Source: a phage. From it: a stretch of 64,000 bases of DNA. The DNA is taken from assembly GCA_020279385.1 (NCBI GenBank), contig GCA_020279385.1_4762.1; one strand, 5' to 3'. A program made the translations under genes and the position numbers. Below the pieces are notes generated by a model. That model ran no database searches, was not told the DNA's origin, and saw nothing but the letters and a program-made list of their open reading frames with translations. Below, piece after piece: positions 23,958-53,947 of the stretch. How positions within the stretch are numbered: the stretch's first letter is position 1; every line of letters begins with the position of its first letter.

Positions 23958-24161
23958 TTATAGCTCAAATTTCATGAAAGTTCCTACACTTTCATTTTCA
24001 TTCTCTCCGTTTTCATCTAAGCCAAATTTGTAGACACTGCCATCTGGCGATGTGTAAGAGAATACACGAAAACGGCCTACCGAATCAAGTTCTGTAAATT
24101 CATATTCTTTTCCGGCTTCAAAAAGTGCATATGTGCTTTTAAGACATTTCATCGTAATCAT
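23958..24161 (-). CDS. Hypothetical protein (67 aa)
   Basis: ATGA coupling to upstream small ORF. Confidence 0.55.
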   Translation of the reverse strand: MITMKCLKSTYALFEAGKEYEFTELDSVGRFRVFSYTSPDGSVYKFGLDENGENENESVGTFMKFEL

Positions 24162-24889: not shown

Positions 24890-25525
24890 TCAAGCGAACG
24901 TAGAAAGCAAATGTTTTGTTTCTTTCAGTTGTCTTTCAAGATCTTTGCGTTTCTCTTTAAGTTGCATTTTAGCATTATTTCGCTGTTTTTCAACATCTTT
25001 ATCGATGTGCTTAGTCCAATTATCAATATCAGAATAAGTTGGCATACCCAATTCTAGACCTAATGCGGTTGGATACAGGGTAACAGTCCATAAACCGCTA
25101 ATCTTCTTAAATAGGTCTGGGTGTAGTGTACTATCTACATCTTCCGGTGTCAACTCTTTTTCTTCTTTCAGTGGTGGGATCTCGTCATATGGTTCCAGTG
25201 CATTTACTTTAATATCAGATACCTCATCAAAGAATCCGCGTACATCCGCAGGAAATACACAAGCAATTTCCCAACCGTGATCACGCAGAGAAGTAATATT
25301 TTTCACTCCCCCACCATGTGTGATGATTGATGTGACATTGCCATCAAGGTCCACCGAATTTACGAGAAATGGCTTATCGTCTGTCAGATCATTATAAAAC
25401 TGTGCTTCGGCTGTAGTCATCTCCAGAAACAGATCTCGGATCGGACGACCATCCGGTGCGTTACCTTCCTTGAGAGTATAAAAGCGACTTACGATCCATT
25501 TTGGCGGTAAAGCATTAGCGATCAT
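24890..25525 (-). CDS. Hypothetical protein (211 aa) in the T4 61.x position
   Basis: SD AGGAG upstream; between primase and helicase. Confidence 0.6.
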   Translation of the reverse strand: MIANALPPKWIVSRFYTLKEGNAPDGRPIRDLFLEMTTAEAQFYNDLTDDKPFLVNSVDLDGNVTSIITHGGGVKNITSLRDHGWEIACVFPADVRGFFDEVSDIKVNALEPYDEIPPLKEEKELTPEDVDSTLHPDLFKKISGLWTVTLYPTALGLELGMPTYSDIDNWTKHIDKDVEKQRNNAKMQLKEKRKDLERQLKETKHLLSTFA

Positions 25526-42368: not shown

Positions 42369-42627
42369 AAATCGCCCTCAGTTCTTTATAGCCTCCAATG
42401 TGCTCGTTGTCAATGAATATCTGGGGGTATACAAACCGGAGGCTCTTTGAGTTTAGCCTCCCCGCCAGTTCTTCAATCATATCACGGTCGGGAATAATGT
42501 CAACCCCGACCTGCTTGAATACTGGTTTAAGTGTATACGGAATACCCAGATCATCCAGTAGCTTCATTGCACTAATACAACCATAACAATGATAAGCCTC
42601 TTTCGGTATACCGTATATCTCGATCAT
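42358..42627 (-). CDS. nrdH: Glutaredoxin-like protein (NrdH-like)
   Basis: 89 aa; CxxC redox motif (HCYGCISA); thioredoxin-fold size; near nrdG/nrdD. Confidence 0.65.
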   Translation of the reverse strand: MIEIYGIPKEAYHCYGCISAMKLLDDLGIPYTLKPVFKQVGVDIIPDRDMIEELAGRLNSKSLRFVYPQIFIDNEHIGGYKELRAIYDY

Positions 42628-43130
42628 TTCTCAGCCTTTAATCTTTCTAGTTCTTCTTCCAGTTCCTTGATCCGTTGGTCACGTTCAAAGTCACGCTGTA
42701 ACTTAGTGGCAAATACTCGCTTAAACTGATTGTAATCATCGATTTTAAACACTTCTTCTTCGCCATAGCGACGCACAGAAACTTCGTAGTTATTGAAGAA
42801 TTGTTGCATCATTGCATCAGTAGTCAGTTCTGACGACACCACTTTAAAATAACGTTCTTCTGATTGCAAAAACCAGTTGTGCGCGTATTCCCGTACATCA
42901 TCAACATTGCGGCAGGGGTATACCGTGCCATCAATTTCAATCACAGAAACATAATCGATATCTGGTTCATGGCGATCAAACGCAATAACTTTAAATGGAC
43001 GGTCTCCGATAAACTCTGCTATTGCATCATTTGCAACGCTAGAGTTTGCAAAATCTTCTCTCGTTTTATAATCTTTCCACTGATAGGTCATACCAACAAC
43101 AAACATATTACCAACCTCGCTCTTCACCAA
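42624..43130 (-). CDS. Paralog family A member 1 (168 aa)
   Basis: Shares PFKV...IDG..Y core and C-terminal coiled coil with neighbours. Confidence 0.6.
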   Translation of the reverse strand: MVKSEVGNMFVVGMTYQWKDYKTREDFANSSVANDAIAEFIGDRPFKVIAFDRHEPDIDYVSVIEIDGTVYPCRNVDDVREYAHNWFLQSEERYFKVVSSELTTDAMMQQFFNNYEVSVRRYGEEEVFKIDDYNQFKRVFATKLQRDFERDQRIKELEEELERLKAEK

Positions 43131-43656
43131 TCAAAAATTCAACTTCACGACGTTTAATATCTTCTTGAAGGTCTTTAATCTTCTGGCGATCTTGCATGAT
43201 TTCGTCCATCTTGTCAAGTGCTGCAATAAAATCATCGAAACGTTCAAAGGTTTTACCTTCATTTGCTTCGCCAAATTTAACCATTGTCAGACCATAACGA
43301 CTACTAAACAGACGTTTCAACTGTCCAACGATCTTAGAATCATCGTTCACCTTTTCTTCTGGTTCTTTCACTGTTTCAACTTCACGAAAGAATTTTCTAT
43401 CGAATGGACTAAAGAAATATGTTGCAGTCCAAATGTCTTTTCCTGTAGCAGTTTTCGCCGTATGATAAACACCGTCTAGCTCTATTGCATCAATCCATCC
43501 GTTACCCTCGATCTCGATGATGGTAAATGGCTTGTCACCAATAGCTGCACTAATATCGCTGTTAAGTGGAGAAAGAACACCTTCTCCGTTAGTAATAAAC
43601 TCAGTTTTAGCGTTTTCATCTTTCCAAGTGTAAGTTTTACCAATTTCCCATTTCAT
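43108..43656 (-). CDS. Paralog family A member 2 (182 aa)
   Basis: N-terminus MKWEIGKTYTWKD; PFTIIEIEG...IELDGVY core. Confidence 0.6.
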   Translation of the reverse strand: MKWEIGKTYTWKDENAKTEFITNGEGVLSPLNSDISAAIGDKPFTIIEIEGNGWIDAIELDGVYHTAKTATGKDIWTATYFFSPFDRKFFREVETVKEPEEKVNDDSKIVGQLKRLFSSRYGLTMVKFGEANEGKTFERFDDFIAALDKMDEIMQDRQKIKDLQEDIKRREVEFLIGEERGW

Positions 43657-43668
43657 AATATATTCCCC

Positions 43669-44148
43669 TTAACCGATTTTATCAAGTTCGTTTAATGCTT
43701 TCTCTGCTTCCTGTATAGCTTGCACCCTTTCCGGCATTTTGTCAAGAAAATCTTTCAACTCTTCAAAACTGGAGATATGACGCAAGGCGTTAGCACCGAT
43801 AGCCGCATGTGATTTGCATTCAAAGCGGATTTTATAATTATCCATCGCCAACTTGAGAAGATCAATTAATTTAGATTCTTCTGGAATAATAATTTCTTCA
43901 AATCTGCTACGGTCATGATCCAGAAACCAACAAGATAGACCTACATCGGTTGAACTCATATAAGTTCCATCATGAAGATAAACAGACCGCACGTATCCTT
44001 TTTTCGCATCAACCGACGCAACTTTAAACGGTAATCTCAGATATTTCAAATAATCAACATCATACCATTTAAAAAATTGGTTTGCATCTTTTACATCTTT
44101 CCACGCATAGGTCTTACCAGCTTCCCATTTCATAATATCATCTCTCAT
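43669..44148 (-). CDS. Paralog family A member 3 (159 aa)
   Basis: MKWEAGKTYAWKD motif (after short N-extension); PFKVASVD core. Confidence 0.6.
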   Translation of the reverse strand: MRDDIMKWEAGKTYAWKDVKDANQFFKWYDVDYLKYLRLPFKVASVDAKKGYVRSVYLHDGTYMSSTDVGLSCWFLDHDRSRFEEIIIPEESKLIDLLKLAMDNYKIRFECKSHAAIGANALRHISSFEELKDFLDKMPERVQAIQEAEKALNELDKIG

Positions 44149-44674
44149 TTTTGATACGTGATTCTAATTGGATCATACGGTCGCGCGTTTGTTTGTATTC
44201 TCGGATAGCACCGATCCGGCTAGGCATACCATCCAGTACGCTCTTAATACCTTCTAGGGTAGTAATTTTGGCAATGCTATTATGTAACCCCATCTTATCG
44301 ATCAACTGAATGTCGTAGGCTTCCATAAGCAGACCCAGTCGTTCTAAAGTTAGGTCTTCTTCTTTTTCTTCCGAATCTGGAATCTTAGGTTCAATAGTAA
44401 CTTCGGTAAAGAAACGACGCTCACCTGCCCAAAACCACACGCCGGAACAGCCAATAGGGGATTCTTTTAACGTCATAGAGTCGAAATTACTACCAATAAT
44501 AGTAATTTCTCTAACATCACCATCATCGTCAAGGTCTTCTACCCTAAACGGGCGACCAGCCAACAAGTCAACAATACATCTGTTAATAGACGACGAAAAT
44601 TTAGTCAGTTCGGCTTTCGACGCTTCGCATTCAATCTTGTAAGTTTTACCAACTTCCCATTCCATAATAATCAC
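44138..44674 (-). CDS. Paralog family A member 4 (178 aa)
   Basis: MEWEVGKTYKIE motif; PFRVEDLD core. Confidence 0.6.
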   Translation of the reverse strand: MIIMEWEVGKTYKIECEASKAELTKFSSSINRCIVDLLAGRPFRVEDLDDDGDVREITIIGSNFDSMTLKESPIGCSGVWFWAGERRFFTEVTIEPKIPDSEEKEEDLTLERLGLLMEAYDIQLIDKMGLHNSIAKITTLEGIKSVLDGMPSRIGAIREYKQTRDRMIQLESRIKNER

Positions 44675-45396: not shown

Positions 45397-45930
45397 TTAT
45401 TTTAAATTTTTTCGAATGTATTCAGACCATTCCTTCCCTGTCATTTCGGACCCGTTCTGGAAACTGAAATATTCATACGGCATCGAGTCAAGATAAAACA
45501 GGATCATACATCGCGCCATATAATACCAATCACGATTAAAGTAAACTACGTTATCACCAGTACCATCAGCACCTTTATCATAACCATCTCGGGTACGGGC
45601 GACCCATTGAATAGTATCATTTTTCTCACGGATAGTCACAGGTTCCCAATATCCAGCACATCCAGCATGACCACACGAACAAGTAAGGAAATATTGCCCT
45701 TTTGCTTTGTTGTCATCCCATTCACGATGGATTGGTTCGATCTCGTGAAACAGTGCCAAACAATCATGATTATGCAACACTGGCTTACCATCAATCAATG
45801 CATGGAATGTATACAAACGACCAGTAGACAAATAGCTATCCTCGCGCTCACAGAGTTCAATAGCAATCTTTTTAGCTCGTTCTTTGTGTCGTTGTGCTTT
45901 ACGTTTACGGTTTAATGATTTCATAGTCAC
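45397..45930 (-). CDS. Hypothetical protein (177 aa), Cys/His-rich
   Basis: ORF on early strand. Confidence 0.55.
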   Translation of the reverse strand: MTMKSLNRKRKAQRHKERAKKIAIELCEREDSYLSTGRLYTFHALIDGKPVLHNHDCLALFHEIEPIHREWDDNKAKGQYFLTCSCGHAGCAGYWEPVTIREKNDTIQWVARTRDGYDKGADGTGDNVVYFNRDWYYMARCMILFYLDSMPYEYFSFQNGSEMTGKEWSEYIRKNLK

Positions 45931-45941
45931 CTCACATTATT

Positions 45942-46346
45942 TCAAAGATCGCGATATTGTACATTATGAAAATGAGAACTTGCATTACCAATATTGTAGA
46001 TAATAAATTCTTCATCCGGCGCTTGCGCTACAAATTGAGTATGAGCAACCGCCACAACCTTAAAAATACGATCCGTGATCTTGTGTTTAATTTCTGCCCC
46101 TACTTCCATAGGAACATATTCATTTGTTTCTGTTTCAGTCGCAAAACAGCCATCTTCTTCATAAGCACGAACAAATCGGTCGCAATCAGTACGCTTAACA
46201 AATTCAAGAGTATATAATTCTCGTGAATTGTCGGTATAGACCAATACAGAATTATTATGATAGCGAATCACATACAGGTTATTATCATCGTCAATTACGC
46301 AAAAGCTACGGATTCCTTCGCCTTGACTCCAGCAGATATTAACCAC
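45942..46346 (-). CDS. Hypothetical protein (134 aa)
   Basis: ORF on early strand. Confidence 0.55.
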   Translation of the reverse strand: MVNICWSQGEGIRSFCVIDDDNNLYVIRYHNNSVLVYTDNSRELYTLEFVKRTDCDRFVRAYEEDGCFATETETNEYVPMEVGAEIKHKITDRIFKVVAVAHTQFVAQAPDEEFIIYNIGNASSHFHNVQYRDL

Positions 46347-46508: not shown

Positions 46509-46536
46509 ATTATACATGAGCTAATCATGTTGTCAA
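46509..46536 (-). promoter_or_regulatory. Early sigma70 promoter (part of repeated terminator-promoter module)
   Basis: rc TTGACA-16nt-TATAAT directly downstream of the nrdD terminator. Confidence 0.6.
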
Positions 46537-46542
46537 CACCCC

Positions 46543-46574
46543 AAAACGAAAAAGCCGACCCTTTCGGATCGGCT
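46543..46574 (-). terminator. Rho-independent terminator after nrdD
   Basis: - strand RNA AGCCGAUCC-GAAA-GGGUCGGCU then UUUUCGUUUU. Confidence 0.75.
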
Positions 46575-48442: not shown

Positions 48443-48486
48443 TGTATCACCTATGAAAAAGCGGGATTTCTCCCGCTCGTTGATAG

Positions 48487-48981
48487 TTATTTTACCAGTT
48501 CTGCTAATTCTTTTTCCGCCGCTTCCAGTTCAGCTTTCAGTTGTTTGATCTCTTGTCGCTTCTTATTAGCGGCTTCCTGCTTACTATTTCGGATAATCTG
48601 ATCTAGATATGAATCCCACTCCTGAATATTTTTGATAATGTAACCGTCAACATTAATTGGTCGGAGATTTAGTACAGCTTCCAGTTTAGTTGCAAAAACT
48701 TTAATTGCTGGTGTGAAGTATTCATACTCGTTATCTTCAAACCAATAACCTAGACTTGCATTATCAATACGAAGACGAAGTTTAAGATCAAGGTCTTTAT
48801 CTTCGGTGTAAAGATCTTTCACCTGCCCCATCGAGCTAACAACAACTTTAAAACGAATTTTATCTACACCGCCAAAAACATCTTCAAGAATATCAGCAAT
48901 TGAGCTATTAGCGCAAGATTGGTCGCTGAATGCGTCAAGATTTTCTTTAGTTACAGTATACCAAATATCTTGTTTCCACAT
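48487..48981 (-). CDS. Paralog family A-related protein (164 aa)
   Basis: ANSSIADILEDVFGG...IRFKVVV core and C-terminal coiled coil resemble 42624-44674 genes. Confidence 0.55.
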   Translation of the reverse strand: MWKQDIWYTVTKENLDAFSDQSCANSSIADILEDVFGGVDKIRFKVVVSSMGQVKDLYTEDKDLDLKLRLRIDNASLGYWFEDNEYEYFTPAIKVFATKLEAVLNLRPINVDGYIIKNIQEWDSYLDQIIRNSKQEAANKKRQEIKQLKAELEAAEKELAELVK

Positions 48982-49011
48982 AATATAATCCTCTCGTTGT
49001 TAAGTGGGAGT

Positions 49012-49039
49012 ATTATAGCATACTCCCTTTGCATGTCAA
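49012..49039 (-). promoter_or_regulatory. Early promoter with inverted repeat around -10 (PeSL-like)
   Basis: rc TTGACA-16nt-TATAAT; GGGAGTA/TACTCCC arms. Confidence 0.65.
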
Positions 49040-50214
49040 GCACCAACTTTTTTCTTTACTGCTTTCACCTTCTGGCGAATTGCTCGAATCTCTTCGATCT
49101 CTTTTTCAGTCTCTTTAACAATTTCTTTGCGATTCTGAATATCTGTATCGAGATTATCATCAAGTTTAGGCAGCATGTCAATCAAGAACTTTTTAAGGTC
49201 TTTCAGGTTTCGGATAACAGCACCTTCACCCATTACCGCAACACCAACACCATCCGGCAGATCACCAAACAGTTTAACCAGTTCAGACAGATGATCATGG
49301 TCTTCTAATGCTTCCTCCGGTTCAGATGGCAGTTCAACAAAGTTATAACGTTCATCATTGCTGATCAAGTGATACCAGCAAAGCCCGAAAGATTTCGGTG
49401 TATATTCTACACCATCAATTTCAACCGCGTCAACACTTCCATAATCATCTACTTTAGTTACCTTAAATCCTTGTCCCAGCTTTTGAACAATTTCAACAAC
49501 ATGACTTGATACAGTTTCAGCGGTAAACCAATATGGCAAATTATGCTGATTTGGCTTGTAGCGTTCACCTACTTTAAATCTCTGACCATCCGCTTGCATA
49601 GAATGAAATTGTTGTTTCGTGATTTCCGCGAAGTATTCAAATTCGCCACCATCAAACACACAAGCCCATTGATCACAAAAACGATCTGCCTTAACAGTTT
49701 CACCTTTCGCGGTGATCATGGTAGCCGATCCATGAAATTCTTCTTCAACTAAAAAGCCATATTCGACAAAATCAACAAGTTTCATAGCTTCTTTGTGGTC
49801 TGGATCATGCTCTCCCCAGAATCGCTTAAATTCTTGCAAACCTTCTGGGGTAAACGAATAACATTTACCTTTTTCAAAGTAAGTCGGCATTGCATCCTCT
49901 TTCTTGTTCATCGCTTCGTATGCCTCTTTTGAGATGCGTTTAAAGTATTTACGCTCATTGTGCATAATCATAGTGGCCCAATAATCAACAATATCATTAG
50001 CGGAATAAACTACATCTCCAGCTTCAATAGTAATAACATGACCGTGGTCATCTTTTTCTAATACTTTAAAGCCCTTTTCTACGATTTCAGCAACCCGAAT
50101 ATGACCACGGCGCGAAGCATCGGTCAGAATAATTGAATAGCGAGAAAAGTCTAGAAACTCATCTTTACCGCCTTCACGGAATGCATAGTAATGACCTTCA
50201 AAGAATTTAGCCAT
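49036..50214 (-). CDS. Paralog family A-related protein (392 aa) with internal duplication
   Basis: Two copies of KGFKV...G.V..IE.DG.EY module. Confidence 0.6.
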   Translation of the reverse strand: MAKFFEGHYYAFREGGKDEFLDFSRYSIILTDASRRGHIRVAEIVEKGFKVLEKDDHGHVITIEAGDVVYSANDIVDYWATMIMHNERKYFKRISKEAYEAMNKKEDAMPTYFEKGKCYSFTPEGLQEFKRFWGEHDPDHKEAMKLVDFVEYGFLVEEEFHGSATMITAKGETVKADRFCDQWACVFDGGEFEYFAEITKQQFHSMQADGQRFKVGERYKPNQHNLPYWFTAETVSSHVVEIVQKLGQGFKVTKVDDYGSVDAVEIDGVEYTPKSFGLCWYHLISNDERYNFVELPSEPEEALEDHDHLSELVKLFGDLPDGVGVAVMGEGAVIRNLKDLKKFLIDMLPKLDDNLDTDIQNRKEIVKETEKEIEEIRAIRQKVKAVKKKVGA

Positions 50215-50244
50215 AATATAATCCTCTCGTTGTTAAGTGGGAGT

Positions 50245-50273
50245 ATCTTACTACTCCCGTTTCATCATGTCAA
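50245..50273 (-). promoter_or_regulatory. Early promoter with inverted repeat around -10 (PeSL-like)
   Basis: rc TTGACA-17nt-TAAGAT; GGGAGTA/TACTCCC arms. Confidence 0.65.
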
Positions 50274-50836
50274 GCGTTAAATGACTTTTGGATCTCTTTC
50301 AGTTCAGCTACTTTATCGGCGCTGAATTTAGCGTAGGTATCATGTCGAATAATTTCACTTTCAAGAAAGGTTTCCAGCCGAGATCTATTTTCAATAAGGA
50401 ACTCTTTCAGGTCTTCCGCGTTCTTGATAAAGATTTTATTGTCAGTAATGTCATCTTCAATCGCAAAGGAGATAGAGCGAACTTTACCAAACAAGTTAAT
50501 CAGATCTTCCAGCGATTCTTCTTTCTTAACTGGTTTCATTTCTTCAAACTGCTTTTTAGTGATTCGTTTAAAGTATTTGCGCTCGCTTGCGTCAATCATG
50601 ATTGACGCGCCCTCATAATCATGAGTTTCTACCAAATACACTTTACCCATAACATTAACCGTAAGAACTTTAAAGCCCCTGTGAAGCACACCATACAGGA
50701 ACTTGTTATGTTGTGGATAGCGTTTGATAAATTCCTCTGCGGACTCAGCATTACGGAAAGTGTAATAACGACCTCGTTCAAAAACAGCATCATTTGAAGA
50801 CTTAGCTGGATACAATTTATACGTTTTCTGTACCAT
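50270..50836 (-). CDS. Paralog family A-related protein (188 aa)
   Basis: RGFKVLTVNVMGKVYLVETHDYEG and ERKYFKRITK shared with the 49036 gene; SD GAGGA. Confidence 0.55.
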   Translation of the reverse strand: MVQKTYKLYPAKSSNDAVFERGRYYTFRNAESAEEFIKRYPQHNKFLYGVLHRGFKVLTVNVMGKVYLVETHDYEGASIMIDASERKYFKRITKKQFEEMKPVKKEESLEDLINLFGKVRSISFAIEDDITDNKIFIKNAEDLKEFLIENRSRLETFLESEIIRHDTYAKFSADKVAELKEIQKSFNA

Positions 50837-50850
50837 AATATAATCCTCTA

Positions 50851-51123
50851 TCATTTCACTAATTGAACAGCACGAAACAGAATGCGGTCACACGGAAGAA
50901 GCATAAATTCCCAACGCGGATCAAAGTCTTTAGCGGTATATGTTTTCCCATCAACCGAGATTTCACTTACATAACCAATAGGTGACACTTTAAGAACAGT
51001 AAACCCATTCTTGATGACTTCGTAGGTATCTTTCAATCCTTCGTAGTCATCCTCTAGGAAGTCTTTACGTGCTTGCTCAGATTTAAAAACATAGGCCACA
51101 CCGGATTTAAACATCTTACGCAT
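50851..51123 (-). CDS. Paralog family A-related protein (90 aa)
   Basis: NGFTVLKVSPIGYVSEISVDGKTY module; SD AAGGAG before ATG at 51123. Confidence 0.55.
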   Translation of the reverse strand: MRKMFKSGVAYVFKSEQARKDFLEDDYEGLKDTYEVIKNGFTVLKVSPIGYVSEISVDGKTYTAKDFDPRWEFMLLPCDRILFRAVQLVK

Positions 51124-51154
51124 TGTTGATTCTCCTTCTTGATTAGATGGGAGT

Positions 51155-51183
51155 ATTTTACTACTCCCATTTCTTATTGTCAA
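51155..51183 (-). promoter_or_regulatory. Early promoter with inverted repeat around -10 (PeSL-like)
   Basis: rc TTGACA-17nt-TAAAAT; GGGAGTA/TACTCCC arms. Confidence 0.65.
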
Positions 51184-51967: not shown

Positions 51968-52723
51968 TTATACCTCATTCAGTTCTATATCAAGTTCATT
52001 TTCAATAATATAGGCATTAACTGCCCGTGCCGCATCATCTTCTGTGTCAAATCTTCCTATATACACACCGCGAACTTTAGCACCGTAATTACCTTGTTTT
52101 GGTACTTTGTAAACGTATCTATGACGGGAACTTGCTGCTTTTTGGAGCTTCTTGCCATATTCAGACTTTGCATATTCTATATCATCAATCTCGTTTATAC
52201 AAGACCTATCACCAAAATGTTTCAACGCTGCAAGATTATATGCATACGCCGCACCGATCTCGGAGGGAAAATATCCTAAATGTATAGACTTCCCATCCAA
52301 CATTATTGCACCAGTCCAATAACCTTTATTCTTATTAAACGACACACCTTTATACTTCGAATATGTTTTGCATTTGGTCTTGCTCATATTCATATTATTT
52401 TGTTTGCTTGTCGTCTCTCTAAGGTTTTCAATGCGGCTATTATAACGATCTCGGTCTTTATGATCTATATACTTAGGACAATGACCATGAAACATATGAT
52501 AGATAACACGGTGCATACGTTCGTATCGCTCGCCAGTCCATACAATACGATACCCATCGGGGGTATCACTTCCAGCTAATCCGTTTATAACACCTTTTCG
52601 GTGCGGGTGAATCTTCCACCTAAGAAAACCATCATCATAATAAAACCGTGAATGATATAAATCATACAAACGTTTATCTTCTGGAGTCTTGTGTATAACA
52701 TCATATTTTAACATTGGTGACAT
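51968..52723 (-). CDS. HNH endonuclease with AP2 DNA-binding domains (homing endonuclease-like)
   Basis: HNH motif (IDHKDRDRYNSRIENLRETTSKQNNMN); two AP2-like segments (YKGVSFNKNKGYWTGAI..., KVRGVYIGRFDTEDDAARAVNAY). Confidence 0.8.
   Translation of the reverse strand: MSPMLKYDVIHKTPEDKRLYDLYHSRFYYDDGFLRWKIHPHRKGVINGLAGSDTPDGYRIVWTGERYERMHRVIYHMFHGHCPKYIDHKDRDRYNSRIENLRETTSKQNNMNMSKTKCKTYSKYKGVSFNKNKGYWTGAIMLDGKSIHLGYFPSEIGAAYAYNLAALKHFGDRSCINEIDDIEYAKSEYGKKLQKAASSRHRYVYKVPKQGNYGAKVRGVYIGRFDTEDDAARAVNAYIIENELDIELNEV
51968..52723 (-). mobile_element. Free-standing HNH-AP2 endonuclease gene inserted between nrdC and dam
   Basis: Homing-endonuclease architecture in an intergenic position of conserved genes. 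Confidence 0.6.
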
Positions 52724-53516
52724 AAACTTCCTTAGTATCGGATTTTTTACCCCCGCTACGATCTAAACAATATGTTTTATCCAGTTCAACAACAGAAACA
52801 TCATTACGTTCGATAAAATCAAGCAAATGGTTGTTAACTTTCCCTTTGTGGTGAGTAACATTGCTTAATCCAAACTTAGTACCGCTAGACATTAATGATT
52901 CTATCCACATGTAGAATTTAATCTCTTCTTCTTCACTCCAGAACTTATTATATTCTGCCGACGTGATCCAATATGGCGGATCAAGGAAAACGAAATCATC
53001 CGGCAAGATCTCGATCTCGTCATAGCGACCAGACGTAAAACTGATTCGACCGTCTTTGTTTTCTTCCTTAAAATTCAGGACACGCTCTACCGCGTTTTCG
53101 TTAAAAGTCCGGCGACCAAAATTAGCATTAAATTCTCCCTTCCGGTTATGGCGGTTAATGTTGCTAAAACTGTGCTGAATCAGAACAAACAGAGATAGCG
53201 GATCTGGATTCTCGTTATACTTCTTGCGGAATGCCATGTAAGCATCTTTATCATCACGAGACAAATCATTTTCGGCAATAATCCGCTTGATCGTAGAAAC
53301 CGGATCAGGACACTCGTCAATCGCTTTGTACGCGTCAATTAAGCGGTGATCATAGTCATTCGCCAGAACATCCCCTTCGACGTACAGAGACACGCTCAAG
53401 CCGCCACAAAAGGCATCAACAAAGCGGTTATAGTGCTTAGGGAAATACTTACTAACACCTGGCAATAACTTTTCCTTATTGCCAGTATAGGGAATTAAAC
53501 CTAATGCTTTCTTCAT
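52701..53516 (-). CDS. dam: DNA adenine methyltransferase (Dam-like, N6-adenine)
   Basis: SAM-binding FxGxG (DAFCGGLSVS) and catalytic DPPY (FLDPPYW); 271 aa. Confidence 0.85.
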   Translation of the reverse strand: MKKALGLIPYTGNKEKLLPGVSKYFPKHYNRFVDAFCGGLSVSLYVEGDVLANDYDHRLIDAYKAIDECPDPVSTIKRIIAENDLSRDDKDAYMAFRKKYNENPDPLSLFVLIQHSFSNINRHNRKGEFNANFGRRTFNENAVERVLNFKEENKDGRISFTSGRYDEIEILPDDFVFLDPPYWITSAEYNKFWSEEEEIKFYMWIESLMSSGTKFGLSNVTHHKGKVNNHLLDFIERNDVSVVELDKTYCLDRSGGKKSDTKEVYVTNVKI

Positions 53517-53947
53517 TATCCCTTCCTCAAATAAGTTCGCTCAATCTCTACCAGTTCGAAAAATTCATCCCAATCACACGGAAAGTTGCAGTTTCCAAAA
53601 TGGTCTTCGTTATAGAGTTCTTTACCGGATGGCAGCTTAATATCTGTTACAGTATACCAACCGCAACAATCGCAATCACCCTCAGCAACAGAAACCTTCG
53701 TAGGAATTTGCATCATTGCTAGATAGGTCGGTACGTCAGACTGTTCAAAGATCATGTAACCTTCATGGTCAAACGAGACAAAATTGTCATCACCCAAAAA
53801 AGGAATGTAATGGTCATAATCGGTTACAGGTTGACCGTGCAATTCCCACTCTACAATTTTAACATTACCGCTAAACTTGATACCCATAATGTCAACAAGA
53901 AAATGAGTATCGTCAATGTAAATCTTACTAGGAGTTGGATAAACCAT
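53516..53947 (-). CDS. Hypothetical protein (143 aa), Cys cluster
   Basis: ORF coupled to dam. Confidence 0.55.
   Translation of the reverse strand: MVYPTPSKIYIDDTHFLVDIMGIKFSGNVKIVEWELHGQPVTDYDHYIPFLGDDNFVSFDHEGYMIFEQSDVPTYLAMMQIPTKVSVAEGDCDCCGWYTVTDIKLPSGKELYNEDHFGNCNFPCDWDEFFELVEIERTYLRKG

What the first reader, a model, noticed from the sequence alone, without database searches (positions are those of the whole stretch)
48487..51123. Second array of the same family, including a 392-aa internally duplicated member
Genes at 48487-48981, 49036-50214, 50270-50836 and 50851-51123 carry the same (K/Q/R/N)GF(K/T)V...G.V..(I/V)E.DG..Y module as the 42.6-44.7 kb array; the 392-aa protein has it twice. 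Each gene has its own promoter/stem-loop cassette. At least eight family members flank the nrd genes, which points to repeated cassette-mediated duplication or shuffling.
Basis: seen in the sequence. Interest (0 to 1): 0.55.

Follow-up and report, generated by a model that had tools for sequence, protein, structure and literature searches.

The report
GoF/Frd.2-like barrel protein array
Four neighbouring early genes of an RB49-like (Krischvirus) T4-type coliphage are old, diverged paralogues of the known T4 GoF/Frd.2/MotB.1 small beta-barrel family, three of them sit behind the known PeSL promoter/stem-loop cassettes, and this is a fuller description of known things, not a new kind of system.

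Summary
The window is an RB49-like Krischvirus, about 97% identical to RB49. The four genes are real: they are RB49p057-060.

All four carry the ~90-aa N-terminal module of the 42.6-44.7 kb array. Three are clear by cross-array profiles (E 7e-11 to 2e-5). B1 (48487-48981) is divergent and needed a profile of 40 outside relatives (E 9e-9).

Corrections to the finding:
- The 392-aa protein has three modules plus a C-terminal domain, not two.
- Only three of the four genes have a promoter/stem-loop cassette. The first array has none.
- A ninth member lies at 24890-25525.

[quoted passage not shown] 2025). AlphaFold2 predicts an SH3-like five-stranded barrel. The cassettes are PeSLs (Arbiol et al. 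2010).

Modules share only 16-37% identity and no DNA similarity beyond the cassettes and short conserved-motif stretches, so the duplications are ancient. Shuffling is real. Phage KFS-EC lost two of the genes by PeSL-to-PeSL recombination. Domain-sized allele blocks are exchanged among Krischviruses. Module number varies between one and two in one array-A gene. dN/dS is below 1 throughout.

The molecular function is inferred, not shown. The best guess is post-transcriptional RNA or host-factor binding.

The parts
50851..51123 (-). B4, 90 aa: a lone N-module with no C-terminal domain (RB49p060 orthologue).
   Evidence: ORF. 98.9% identical to RB49p060. Array-A HMM E 2.1e-7. Outside-family HMM E 3.7e-17.
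50270..50836 (-). B3, 188 aa: N-module (50522-50836) plus helical C-terminal domain (50270-50521). RB49p059 orthologue, annotated 'goF mRNA metabolism modulator'.
   Evidence: phrog_8944 E 2.8e-102. In the AF2 model the N-module has pLDDT 86-93 and forms a five-stranded barrel.
49036..50214 (-). B2, 392 aa: three tandem N-modules (a 49891-50214, b 49591-49890, c 49300-49590) plus a C-terminal domain (49036-49299). RB49p058 orthologue, annotated 'frd.2 / goF'.
   Evidence: Three HMM domains with i-E 1e-13, 1e-11 and 6e-13 using a profile of outside relatives. Orthologues are always 391-392 aa. The AF2 model was unusable (pLDDT 41).
48487..48981 (-). B1, 164 aa: a divergent N-module (48688-48981) plus a conserved coiled-coil-like C-terminal domain (48487-48687). 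RB49p057 orthologue.
   Evidence: Outside-family HMM E 9e-9. hhalign P 7.5e-5. phrog_3710 E 2.3e-5. The orthologue alignment shows a variable N half and a near-invariant C half.
51135..51183 (-). PeSL cassette between endonuclease VII and B4: TTGACA-17-TAAAAT promoter, with stem-loop 51149-51168 overlapping the -10 box, followed by the SD and ATG.
   Evidence: Fold dG -13.8 kcal/mol, z -3.6. Promoter scan 11/12.
50225..50273 (-). PeSL cassette between B3 and B2: TTGACA-17-TAAGAT, stem-loop 50239-50258.
   Evidence: It supplies the 3' half of the chimeric junction in KFS-EC.
48985..49039 (-). PeSL cassette between B2 and B1: TTGACA-16-TATAAT (12/12), stem-loop 49006-49027. Its 3' 35 nt (48979-49013) are identical to 50212-50246.
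   Evidence: Fold dG -16.8 kcal/mol. Promoter scan. Exact 35-nt repeat.
48459..48478 (-). GC-rich hairpin followed by a T-run between B1 and nrdD. It looks like an intrinsic terminator and closes the array.
   Evidence: Fold dG -17 kcal/mol, z -5.9. Annotated as a terminator in relatives.
42624..44665 (-). Array A: four family genes (42624-43106, 43108-43656, 43669-44133, 44138-44665), each an N-module plus a C-terminal domain. They are packed without cassettes between nrdG and nrdH.
   Evidence: phrog_5347 E 1e-50 to 3e-66. Outside-family HMM E 1e-13 to 1e-21. Upstream regions.
24890..25525 (-). Ninth family gene, 211 aa (RB49 'dc2' orthologue), immediately downstream of the gene 41 helicase.
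   Evidence: Array-A HMM E 2.5e-5. Outside HMM E 1.9e-7. ORF. RB49 annotation. The ECD7 'Dc2' protein is a BFVD fold hit.

Best explanation
Array B is half of a nine-gene, eleven-module paralogue expansion of the T4 GoF/Frd.2/MotB.1 family in a Krischvirus (RB49-like phage).

Architecture. Each protein starts with one to three copies of a ~90-aa SH3-like ('LSm-like') five-stranded beta-barrel that has a helical insert between strands 1 and 2. An acidic linker and a small helical or coiled-coil C-terminal domain usually follow.

Expression. B4+B3, B2 and B1 are each driven by a PeSL cassette. A PeSL is a consensus sigma-70 early promoter whose -10 box lies in a stem-loop, followed by a Shine-Dalgarno sequence. 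A hairpin with a T-run insulates the array from nrdD.

Evolution. The paralogues arose by ancient duplication and are kept under purifying selection. Among present-day Krischviruses they evolve by homologous recombination in three ways: PeSL-to-PeSL deletion, exchange of long-diverged domain-sized alleles whose ends lie at PeSLs and at the barrel/C-terminal-domain junction, and gain or loss of whole barrel modules in frame.

What is shown and what is inferred. Shown here: homology, architecture, cassettes, recombination junctions and selection regime. Inferred from work on T4 GoF(D25Y): the barrels are binding modules that act post-transcriptionally on phage or host RNA, or on an RNA-processing host protein, early in infection. 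I put roughly 35-40% on direct RNA binding. Multi-barrel chains would give multivalent binding.
For: Phage identity: 97% to RB49 over 10 kb, with matching gene annotation.

Family:
- PHROG goF family phrog_8944 matches B2 and B3 (E 3.5e-213 and 2.8e-102).
- Cross-array HMMs.
- An outside-family HMM detects all nine genes, with noise only from E 0.15.
- An HMM that excludes the T4 sequences finds T4 GoF (2.5e-18), Frd.2 (3.9e-11) and MotB.1 (1.2e-6).
- A scan of about 85% of the RB49 genome (90-115 kb not fetched) finds the same nine genes and nothing else.

Fold:
- The AF2 model of B3 has the barrel at pLDDT 86-93.
- BFVD gives 30 phage hits at E<1e-3, including a VR7 protein named 'GoF'.

Cassettes. 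PeSL promoter and terminator activity was shown experimentally for other RB49/phi1 PeSLs (PMC2839356).

Recombination:
- KFS-EC chimeric PeSL junction.
- Block boundaries.
- RB49p049 has two barrels where the window gene A2 has one.

Selection: dN/dS is 0.1-0.45 in barrels and 0.02-0.15 in core genes. dS is 0.9-1.9 in the diverged blocks.

Function lead: GoF(D25Y) stabilises gene 41 mRNA post-transcriptionally (PMC12152347). Knock-down of T4 frd.2 reduces fitness (PMC11879866).
Against: - No function is known for any wild-type member. [quoted passage not shown]
- Strict Sm features are absent.
- The C-terminal domain model is of low confidence and the B2 model failed.
- Early transcription from these three PeSLs is inferred from consensus, not measured.
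Confidence: 0.8

Rival explanations
1. Recent, repeated cassette-mediated tandem duplication. PeSL cassettes copy and paste family genes, so the arrays are young and still expanding.
For: Three PeSLs flank array-B genes, and two of them share an exact 35-nt stretch. PeSL recombination does occur at this locus. PeSL mini-circles are documented in RB49/phi1 (PMC2839356).
Against: Modules are 16-37% identical. No DNA-level repeats exist apart from the cassettes and short motif stretches. Array A has no cassettes. Array B has the same four genes in the same order in all 57 records other than the two KFS-EC entries. The one event seen is a deletion, not a duplication.
Confidence: 0.07
2. The family is the same, but the barrels are protein-binding modules that target host proteins, not RNA. 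Targets could be RNA polymerase, Rho, degradosome or defence proteins. The multiple diverged alleles would reflect adaptation to different hosts.
For: The nearest folds (SH3-like, Tudor, Mib, FeoA) are mostly protein-interaction domains, and the UvrD/PcrA Tudor domain binds RNA polymerase. N-modules carry long-diverged alleles while the C-terminal domains stay constant in B1, A1 and A3. goF mutations suppress rho alleles. Wild-type GoF has little effect on the RNA reporter.
Against: dN/dS is below 1, with no sign of positive selection. The same allele mosaicism affects unrelated neighbouring ORFans p054 and p055, and it affects the C-terminal domain of B3, so it is not specific to the barrels. 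No partner protein is known. [quoted passage not shown]
Confidence: 0.3
3. The shared motif is a chance or compositional resemblance among unrelated small acidic phage proteins, and there is no real family.
For: Pairwise BLAST E-values between arrays are modest (4e-5 to 0.01 at a 1e6 database size). Pfam has no family for them.
Against: Independent profiles recover every member with a clean gap to noise. The matches are colinear and full-length, with the same invariant G, Y, F and F columns. The predicted fold is shared with phage relatives.
Confidence: 0.01

Closest known systems
T4 GoF (ComC-alpha) / Frd.2 / MotB.1 family of 'LSm-like fold' early proteins (Kim et al. 2025, PMC12152347)
   Same: The N-terminal ~90-aa five-stranded barrel is the same, with significant profile matches to all three T4 proteins. 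The layout of barrel, acidic linker and variable C-terminal domain is the same. The nearest solved folds (FeoA, IdeR SH3) are the same. They are early, accessory genes of T4-type phages. B2 and B3 already carry the goF/frd.2 name in RefSeq.
   Different: T4 has three dispersed single-barrel genes. This Krischvirus has nine genes, eight of them clustered around nrdG and nrdD, with one to three barrels per chain. It has none at the T4 goF, motB.1 or frd.2 map positions. Six of the nine are annotated only as hypothetical, and dc2 carries only a gene name. The paper does not discuss multi-barrel proteins, tandem arrays or RB49-like phages.
PeSL (promoter-early stem-loop) cassettes of RB49/phi1 and other T4-like phages (Arbiol et al. 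2010, PMC2839356; Comeau et al. 2014, PMC4122927)
   Same: The cassettes have a consensus sigma-70 -35/-10, a G/C-rich stem-loop overlapping the -10 box, and an SD plus start codon of a downstream accessory gene. They lie in a hyperplastic region next to nrdD. They serve as homologous recombination sites that give indels.
   Different: Nothing essential differs; these are PeSLs. The specific KFS-EC deletion, and PeSLs acting as one boundary of domain-sized allele replacements inside family genes, are new examples.
Sm/LSm proteins such as Hfq
   Same: A small, bent, five-stranded antiparallel beta-sheet barrel. There is a proposed link to RNA stability through GoF(D25Y).
   Different: The helices lie between strands 1 and 2, not at the N-terminus. 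No Sm1/Sm2 motifs or Pfam LSM/Hfq hit were found. Lsm chains appear only at Foldseek E of 2.5 or worse. AlphaFold3 did not support ring formation for GoF or MotB.1.
FeoA / DtxR-IdeR C-terminal SH3-like domains
   Different: Sequence identity is 10-13%. There is no Pfam FeoA match, no metal-ligand histidines (PMC12152347) and no iron-transport context.

Membership tests
GoF/Frd.2/MotB.1 phage barrel family | [quoted passage not shown] | tested here: met
   An HMM built without any T4 sequence hits GoF at 2.5e-18, Frd.2 at 3.9e-11 and MotB.1 at 1.2e-6. B2 and B3 match PHROG goF families. B1 joins through an outside-family HMM at E 9e-9.
GoF/Frd.2/MotB.1 phage barrel family | N-terminal domain folds as a bent five-stranded antiparallel beta-sheet or barrel | tested here: met
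   In the AF2 model of B3, strands lie at 24-27, 55-60, 66-70, 77-81 and 89-92 with pLDDT 86-93. SH3-like neighbours. This was modelled for B3 only. The B2 model failed.
GoF/Frd.2/MotB.1 phage barrel family | N-terminal barrel joined by a flexible linker to a variable C-terminal domain | tested here: met
   Seen in B1, B2, B3 and A1-A4. B4 is a barrel only.
GoF/Frd.2/MotB.1 phage barrel family | Early-expressed accessory gene of a T4-type phage | tested here: inconclusive
   Consensus sigma-70 promoters lie in the PeSLs upstream of B4, B2 and B1, and the loss of B3 and B4 in KFS-EC shows they are dispensable. The timing of transcription was not measured.
GoF/Frd.2/MotB.1 phage barrel family | Post-transcriptional effect on mRNA stability (shown only for the GoF D25Y mutant) | not testable with these tools
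   This needs reporter or RNA half-life assays (PMC12152347).
PeSL cassette | Sigma-70 consensus -35 and -10 with 16-18 nt spacing in an intergenic region, followed by an SD and the start codon of an accessory gene | tested here: met
   TTGACA-16-TATAAT, TTGACA-17-TAAAAT and TTGACA-17-TAAGAT upstream of B1, B4 and B2. Not present upstream of B3 or in array A.
PeSL cassette | Stable stem-loop within or next to the promoter | tested here: met
   GGGAGTA...TACTCCC stems with dG -13.8 to -16.8 kcal/mol and z -2.6 to -3.6. There are four exact matches in the window against 0 expected by chance.
PeSL cassette | Acts as a site of homologous recombination that produces indels or replacements between related phages | tested here: met
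   The KFS-EC junction is a chimera of two PeSLs and removes B4 and B3. Allele-block boundaries lie at PeSLs.
Sm/LSm fold (strict sense) | N-terminal alpha-helix followed by five strongly bent strands carrying the Sm1/Sm2 motifs | tested here: not met
   The helices lie between strands 1 and 2. No Pfam LSM or Hfq hit. Lsm chains appear only at Foldseek E of 2.5 or worse.
Sm/LSm fold (strict sense) | Assembly into hexameric or heptameric rings | not tested
   No multimer prediction tool was available. AlphaFold3 multimers of GoF and MotB.1 were not confident in PMC12152347.
FeoA | Match to the FeoA sequence family and an iron-transport context | tested here: not met

The most novel reading that the evidence does not exclude
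Krischviruses maintain a recombining repertoire of interchangeable small-barrel binding modules. The modules are swapped between phages as domain-sized alleles and strung one to three per chain on a constant C-terminal oligomerisation domain. The three-barrel protein B2, if dimerised through its C-terminal helix, would present six barrels, like a single-chain mimic of an Hfq-type ring. It could capture RNA or decoy an RNA-processing host factor. That would make this family a phage-encoded, modular, multivalent post-transcriptional takeover system and not a set of redundant ORFans.
Probability: 0.1. Interest if true: 0.6.

Novelty: new member of a known kind. Interest (0 to 1): 0.3.

Why it matters
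The function of GoF/Frd.2/MotB.1 is a long-standing open question in T4 biology. Knock-down of T4 frd.2 reduces fitness, yet no wild-type activity is known for any member.

Krischviruses offer a natural experiment:
- nine paralogues;
- chains of one, two and three barrels;
- naturally occurring deletions (KFS-EC);
- allele swaps in which the barrel changes while the C-terminal domain stays fixed.

This material could be used to map what the barrels bind and whether copy number or valency matters. It also gives clean new examples of PeSL-mediated recombination and of recombination at domain boundaries inside genes. It does not reveal a new type of system.

Tried and rejected
- AlphaFold2 of the 392-aa protein with its nine orthologues gave pLDDT 41 and is unusable. 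The three-barrel architecture therefore rests on profile evidence.
- The afdb50 fold library was not available.
- Pfam gave no family for any of the eight proteins.
- I tested whether the hypervariable N-modules show positive selection. dN/dS is 0.2-0.45 and dS is saturated in the diverged blocks. They are old alleles brought in by recombination, so I dropped a demonstrated arms race as a conclusion.
- I looked for DNA-level evidence of recent duplication. Only the cassettes and short motif stretches repeat.
- A 67-aa ORF (23958-24161) with a GK.Y.F-like start scored only E 0.08-0.6 with the family HMMs and is not counted as a member.
- Large non-phage proteins among the representative hits (P0075, P0098, P0110, P0118, P0128, P0130) match only a ~30-residue stretch repeatedly. 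I treated them as repeat or bias artefacts.
Full report
**What the window is.** A 10-kb stretch around the finding is about 97% identical to Escherichia phage RB49 and 58 other Krischvirus records. All genes here are on the minus strand. The order is dam, [HNH], nrdC, endonuclease VII, B4, B3, B2, B1, nrdD, two ORFans, a small ORF, nrdG, A4, A3, A2, A1, nrdH. The four genes of the finding are the orthologues of RB49p060, p059, p058 and p057. RefSeq already names p058 'frd.2 / goF mRNA metabolism modulator' and p059 'goF mRNA metabolism modulator'. The other two, and all of array A, are 'hypothetical'.

**Checking the observation.** The ORFs are at the stated coordinates.
- Pairwise BLAST links between the arrays are modest: A2-B4 4e-5, A2-B2 2e-3 and A3-B3 9e-3 at a nominal database size of 1e6.
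- Profiles are decisive. An HMM built from only the four array-A N-modules, searched against all 654 stop-to-stop segments of the window, retrieves B2 (6.9e-11), B4 (2.1e-7) and B3 (1.8e-5). The first unrelated segment appears at E about 0.2.
- The reverse HMM retrieves all four array-A genes.
- PHROG profiles shared by both arrays say the same.

B1 is the weak case. Both small HMMs miss it (E about 1). To test it, a profile of nine window modules that did not include B1 was searched against 1.84 billion representative proteins, which gave 70 hits. An HMM built from 40 of the distant single-barrel hits then finds B1 at E 9e-9. Its orthologue profile aligns colinearly with the module profile (hhalign P 7.5e-5).

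The same outside HMM resolves three domains in the 392-aa protein (i-E 1e-13, 1e-11 and 6e-13). It has three modules, not two. It also finds a ninth gene at 24890-25525, the RB49 'dc2' orthologue, just downstream of the gene 41 helicase. A scan of about 85% of the RB49 genome finds exactly these nine genes (12 modules in RB49) and nothing else. The structural-gene block at 90-115 kb was not fetched.

**What the family is.** T4 GoF and Frd.2 align over the whole module. An HMM that excludes all T4 sequences hits T4 GoF (2.5e-18), Frd.2 (3.9e-11) and MotB.1 (1.2e-6). This is the family described by Kim et al. 2025 (PMC12152347). They describe an N-terminal 'LSm-like' five-stranded barrel, a flexible linker and variable C-terminal domains. 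The GoF(D25Y) mutant stabilises gene 41 mRNA, while the wild-type function is unknown.

My AlphaFold2 model of B3 (38-sequence alignment) has the barrel at pLDDT 86-93. Two helices sit between strands 1 and 2. The helical C-terminal part is of lower confidence. The structure searches gave the following:
- Foldseek against the PDB gives nothing significant.
- BFVD gives 30 phage hits, nearly all from T4-type phages of many hosts, including a protein named GoF.

The strict Sm/LSm definition is not met. 'SH3-like small barrel' is the safer description.

**The cassettes.** Upstream of B4, B2 and B1 lie TTGACA-17-TAAAAT, TTGACA-17-TAAGAT and TTGACA-16-TATAAT. In each, a GGGAGTA...TACTCCC stem-loop overlaps the -10 box, followed by a Shine-Dalgarno sequence and ATG. 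These are PeSLs, described and functionally tested in RB49/phi1 by Arbiol et al. 2010, who note PeSLs around nrdD.
- B3 has no cassette. It starts 14 nt after B4 and retains only the cassette's last ~13 nt (AGAGGATTATATT), so B4 and B3 are probably co-transcribed.
- A strong hairpin with a T-run separates B1 from nrdD.
- Array A has no PeSL and sits inside the nrdG-nrdH gene string.

**How the locus evolves.** The duplication is old.
- Modules share 16-37% identity. The closest pair is B2a-B3 at 37%.
- The only DNA repeats are the cassettes (an exact 35-mer is shared by the B1 and B2 leaders) and short stretches that encode conserved motifs.
- All 57 records other than the two KFS-EC entries keep the four genes colinear at 90-98% nucleotide identity.

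Recombination, however, is visible.
1. Phage KFS-EC lacks B4 and B3. Its endoVII/B2 junction is a chimeric PeSL whose 5' half is the endoVII/B4 cassette and whose 3' half is the B3/B2 cassette.
2. Across nine relatives the core genes are 97-100% identical in protein. Domain-sized blocks drop to 43-63%: B1 N-module, A1 N-module, A3 N-module and B3 C-terminal domain.
3. A sliding-window comparison places the block ends at PeSLs and at the barrel/C-terminal-domain junction.
4. RB49p049 and its orthologues have two barrels, where the window's A2 has one. Single-barrel alleles also occur in metagenomes.

The architectures N (B4), N-C, N-N-C and N-N-N-C, together with the B4|B3 pair separated by 14 nt, suggest fusion and fission of barrel units.

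dN/dS is 0.1-0.45 in barrels against 0.02-0.15 in core genes, and dS is 0.9-1.9 in the diverged blocks. The genes are functional. The diverged blocks are old alleles imported by recombination, not products of demonstrable positive selection. Unrelated neighbouring ORFans (p054, p055) show the same mosaicism.

**Mechanism.** Shown:
- a paralogue family of small-barrel proteins;
- PeSL-type promoters for three transcription units;
- recombination at PeSLs and at domain junctions;
- purifying selection.

Inferred: early expression, and a binding role for the barrel. The only functional data come from T4.
- goF mutations suppress rho alleles.
- GoF(D25Y) raises mRNA half-life independently of Hfq.
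- Wild-type GoF and MotB.1 do little in the same assay.
- Mutants plate normally.
- CRISPRi-ART scored frd.2 as the only fitness gene of unknown function in T4.

I therefore commit to 'early accessory binding proteins acting post-transcriptionally on RNA or on an RNA-processing host factor'. I put about 35-40% on direct RNA binding and about 30% on a host-protein target.

**Verdict.** What is new is the recognition that six proteins annotated only as hypothetical (plus the 'dc2' product) belong to the GoF family, the multi-barrel architectures, and the specific recombination events.

Noticed in passing
window 51968-52723 (-): A 251-aa HNH endonuclease with an AP2 DNA-binding domain (Pfam HNH_3 2e-13, AP2 1e-8) sits between nrdC and dam. 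RB49 and the eight other relatives examined lack it; there nrdC and dam are 8 nt apart. It looks like a free-standing homing endonuclease insertion.
   Followed up: partly
window 52701-53947 (-), dam and the next ORF: dam and the ORF after it are only about 90% identical in protein to all relatives compared (eight to nine for dam; the neighbour reaches 94-99% in three). dam has dS 0.46-0.9, against 0.03-0.2 in neighbouring core genes. This would fit co-conversion of flanking DNA together with the adjacent HNH gene.
   Followed up: partly
window 24890-25525 (-): A ninth GoF-family gene (211 aa, RB49 'dc2' orthologue) lies directly downstream of the gene 41 helicase. Gene 41 is the gene whose mRNA level is affected by T4 GoF(D25Y). 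The position may be coincidental.
   Followed up: partly
window 23958-24161 (-): A 67-aa ORF (phrog_9181) starts with a FEAGKEYEF motif like the family's first strand and has an 'FRV...DG.VY' stretch. Family HMM E-values are only 0.08-0.6, so it is not counted as a member.
   Followed up: partly
window 45397-46346 (-), ORFans between nrdG and nrdD: The two unrelated ORFans (RB49p054 and p055 orthologues) show the same all-or-none allele replacement among Krischviruses: 47% or 97-99% identity, and 64-69% or 95-99%. The mosaicism is therefore a property of this hyperplastic region and not only of the barrel family.
   Followed up: partly
window 46509-46574 (-): Just downstream of nrdD there is another composite element. 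A 9-bp GC-rich hairpin with a T-run (46574-46553) is followed by a perfect TTGACA-16-TATAAT promoter (46536-46509). This is a PeSL of the subclass with the stem-loop upstream of the -35 box.
   Followed up: no
window 42624-43656 (-), array A genes A1 and A2: The window phage carries a rare A1 N-module allele. It is 57-59% identical to eight relatives and 86% to Makalu_001, while the C-terminal domain is 91-97% identical. It also carries a single-barrel A2, where all eight relatives whose array A was in the fetched locus have a two-barrel 274-277-aa protein.
   Followed up: yes
L012 (phage JSE) 4421-7043: In JSE the nrdD gene is split into two ORFs by a homing endonuclease gene. The window and RB49 have an intact nrdD.
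   Followed up: no
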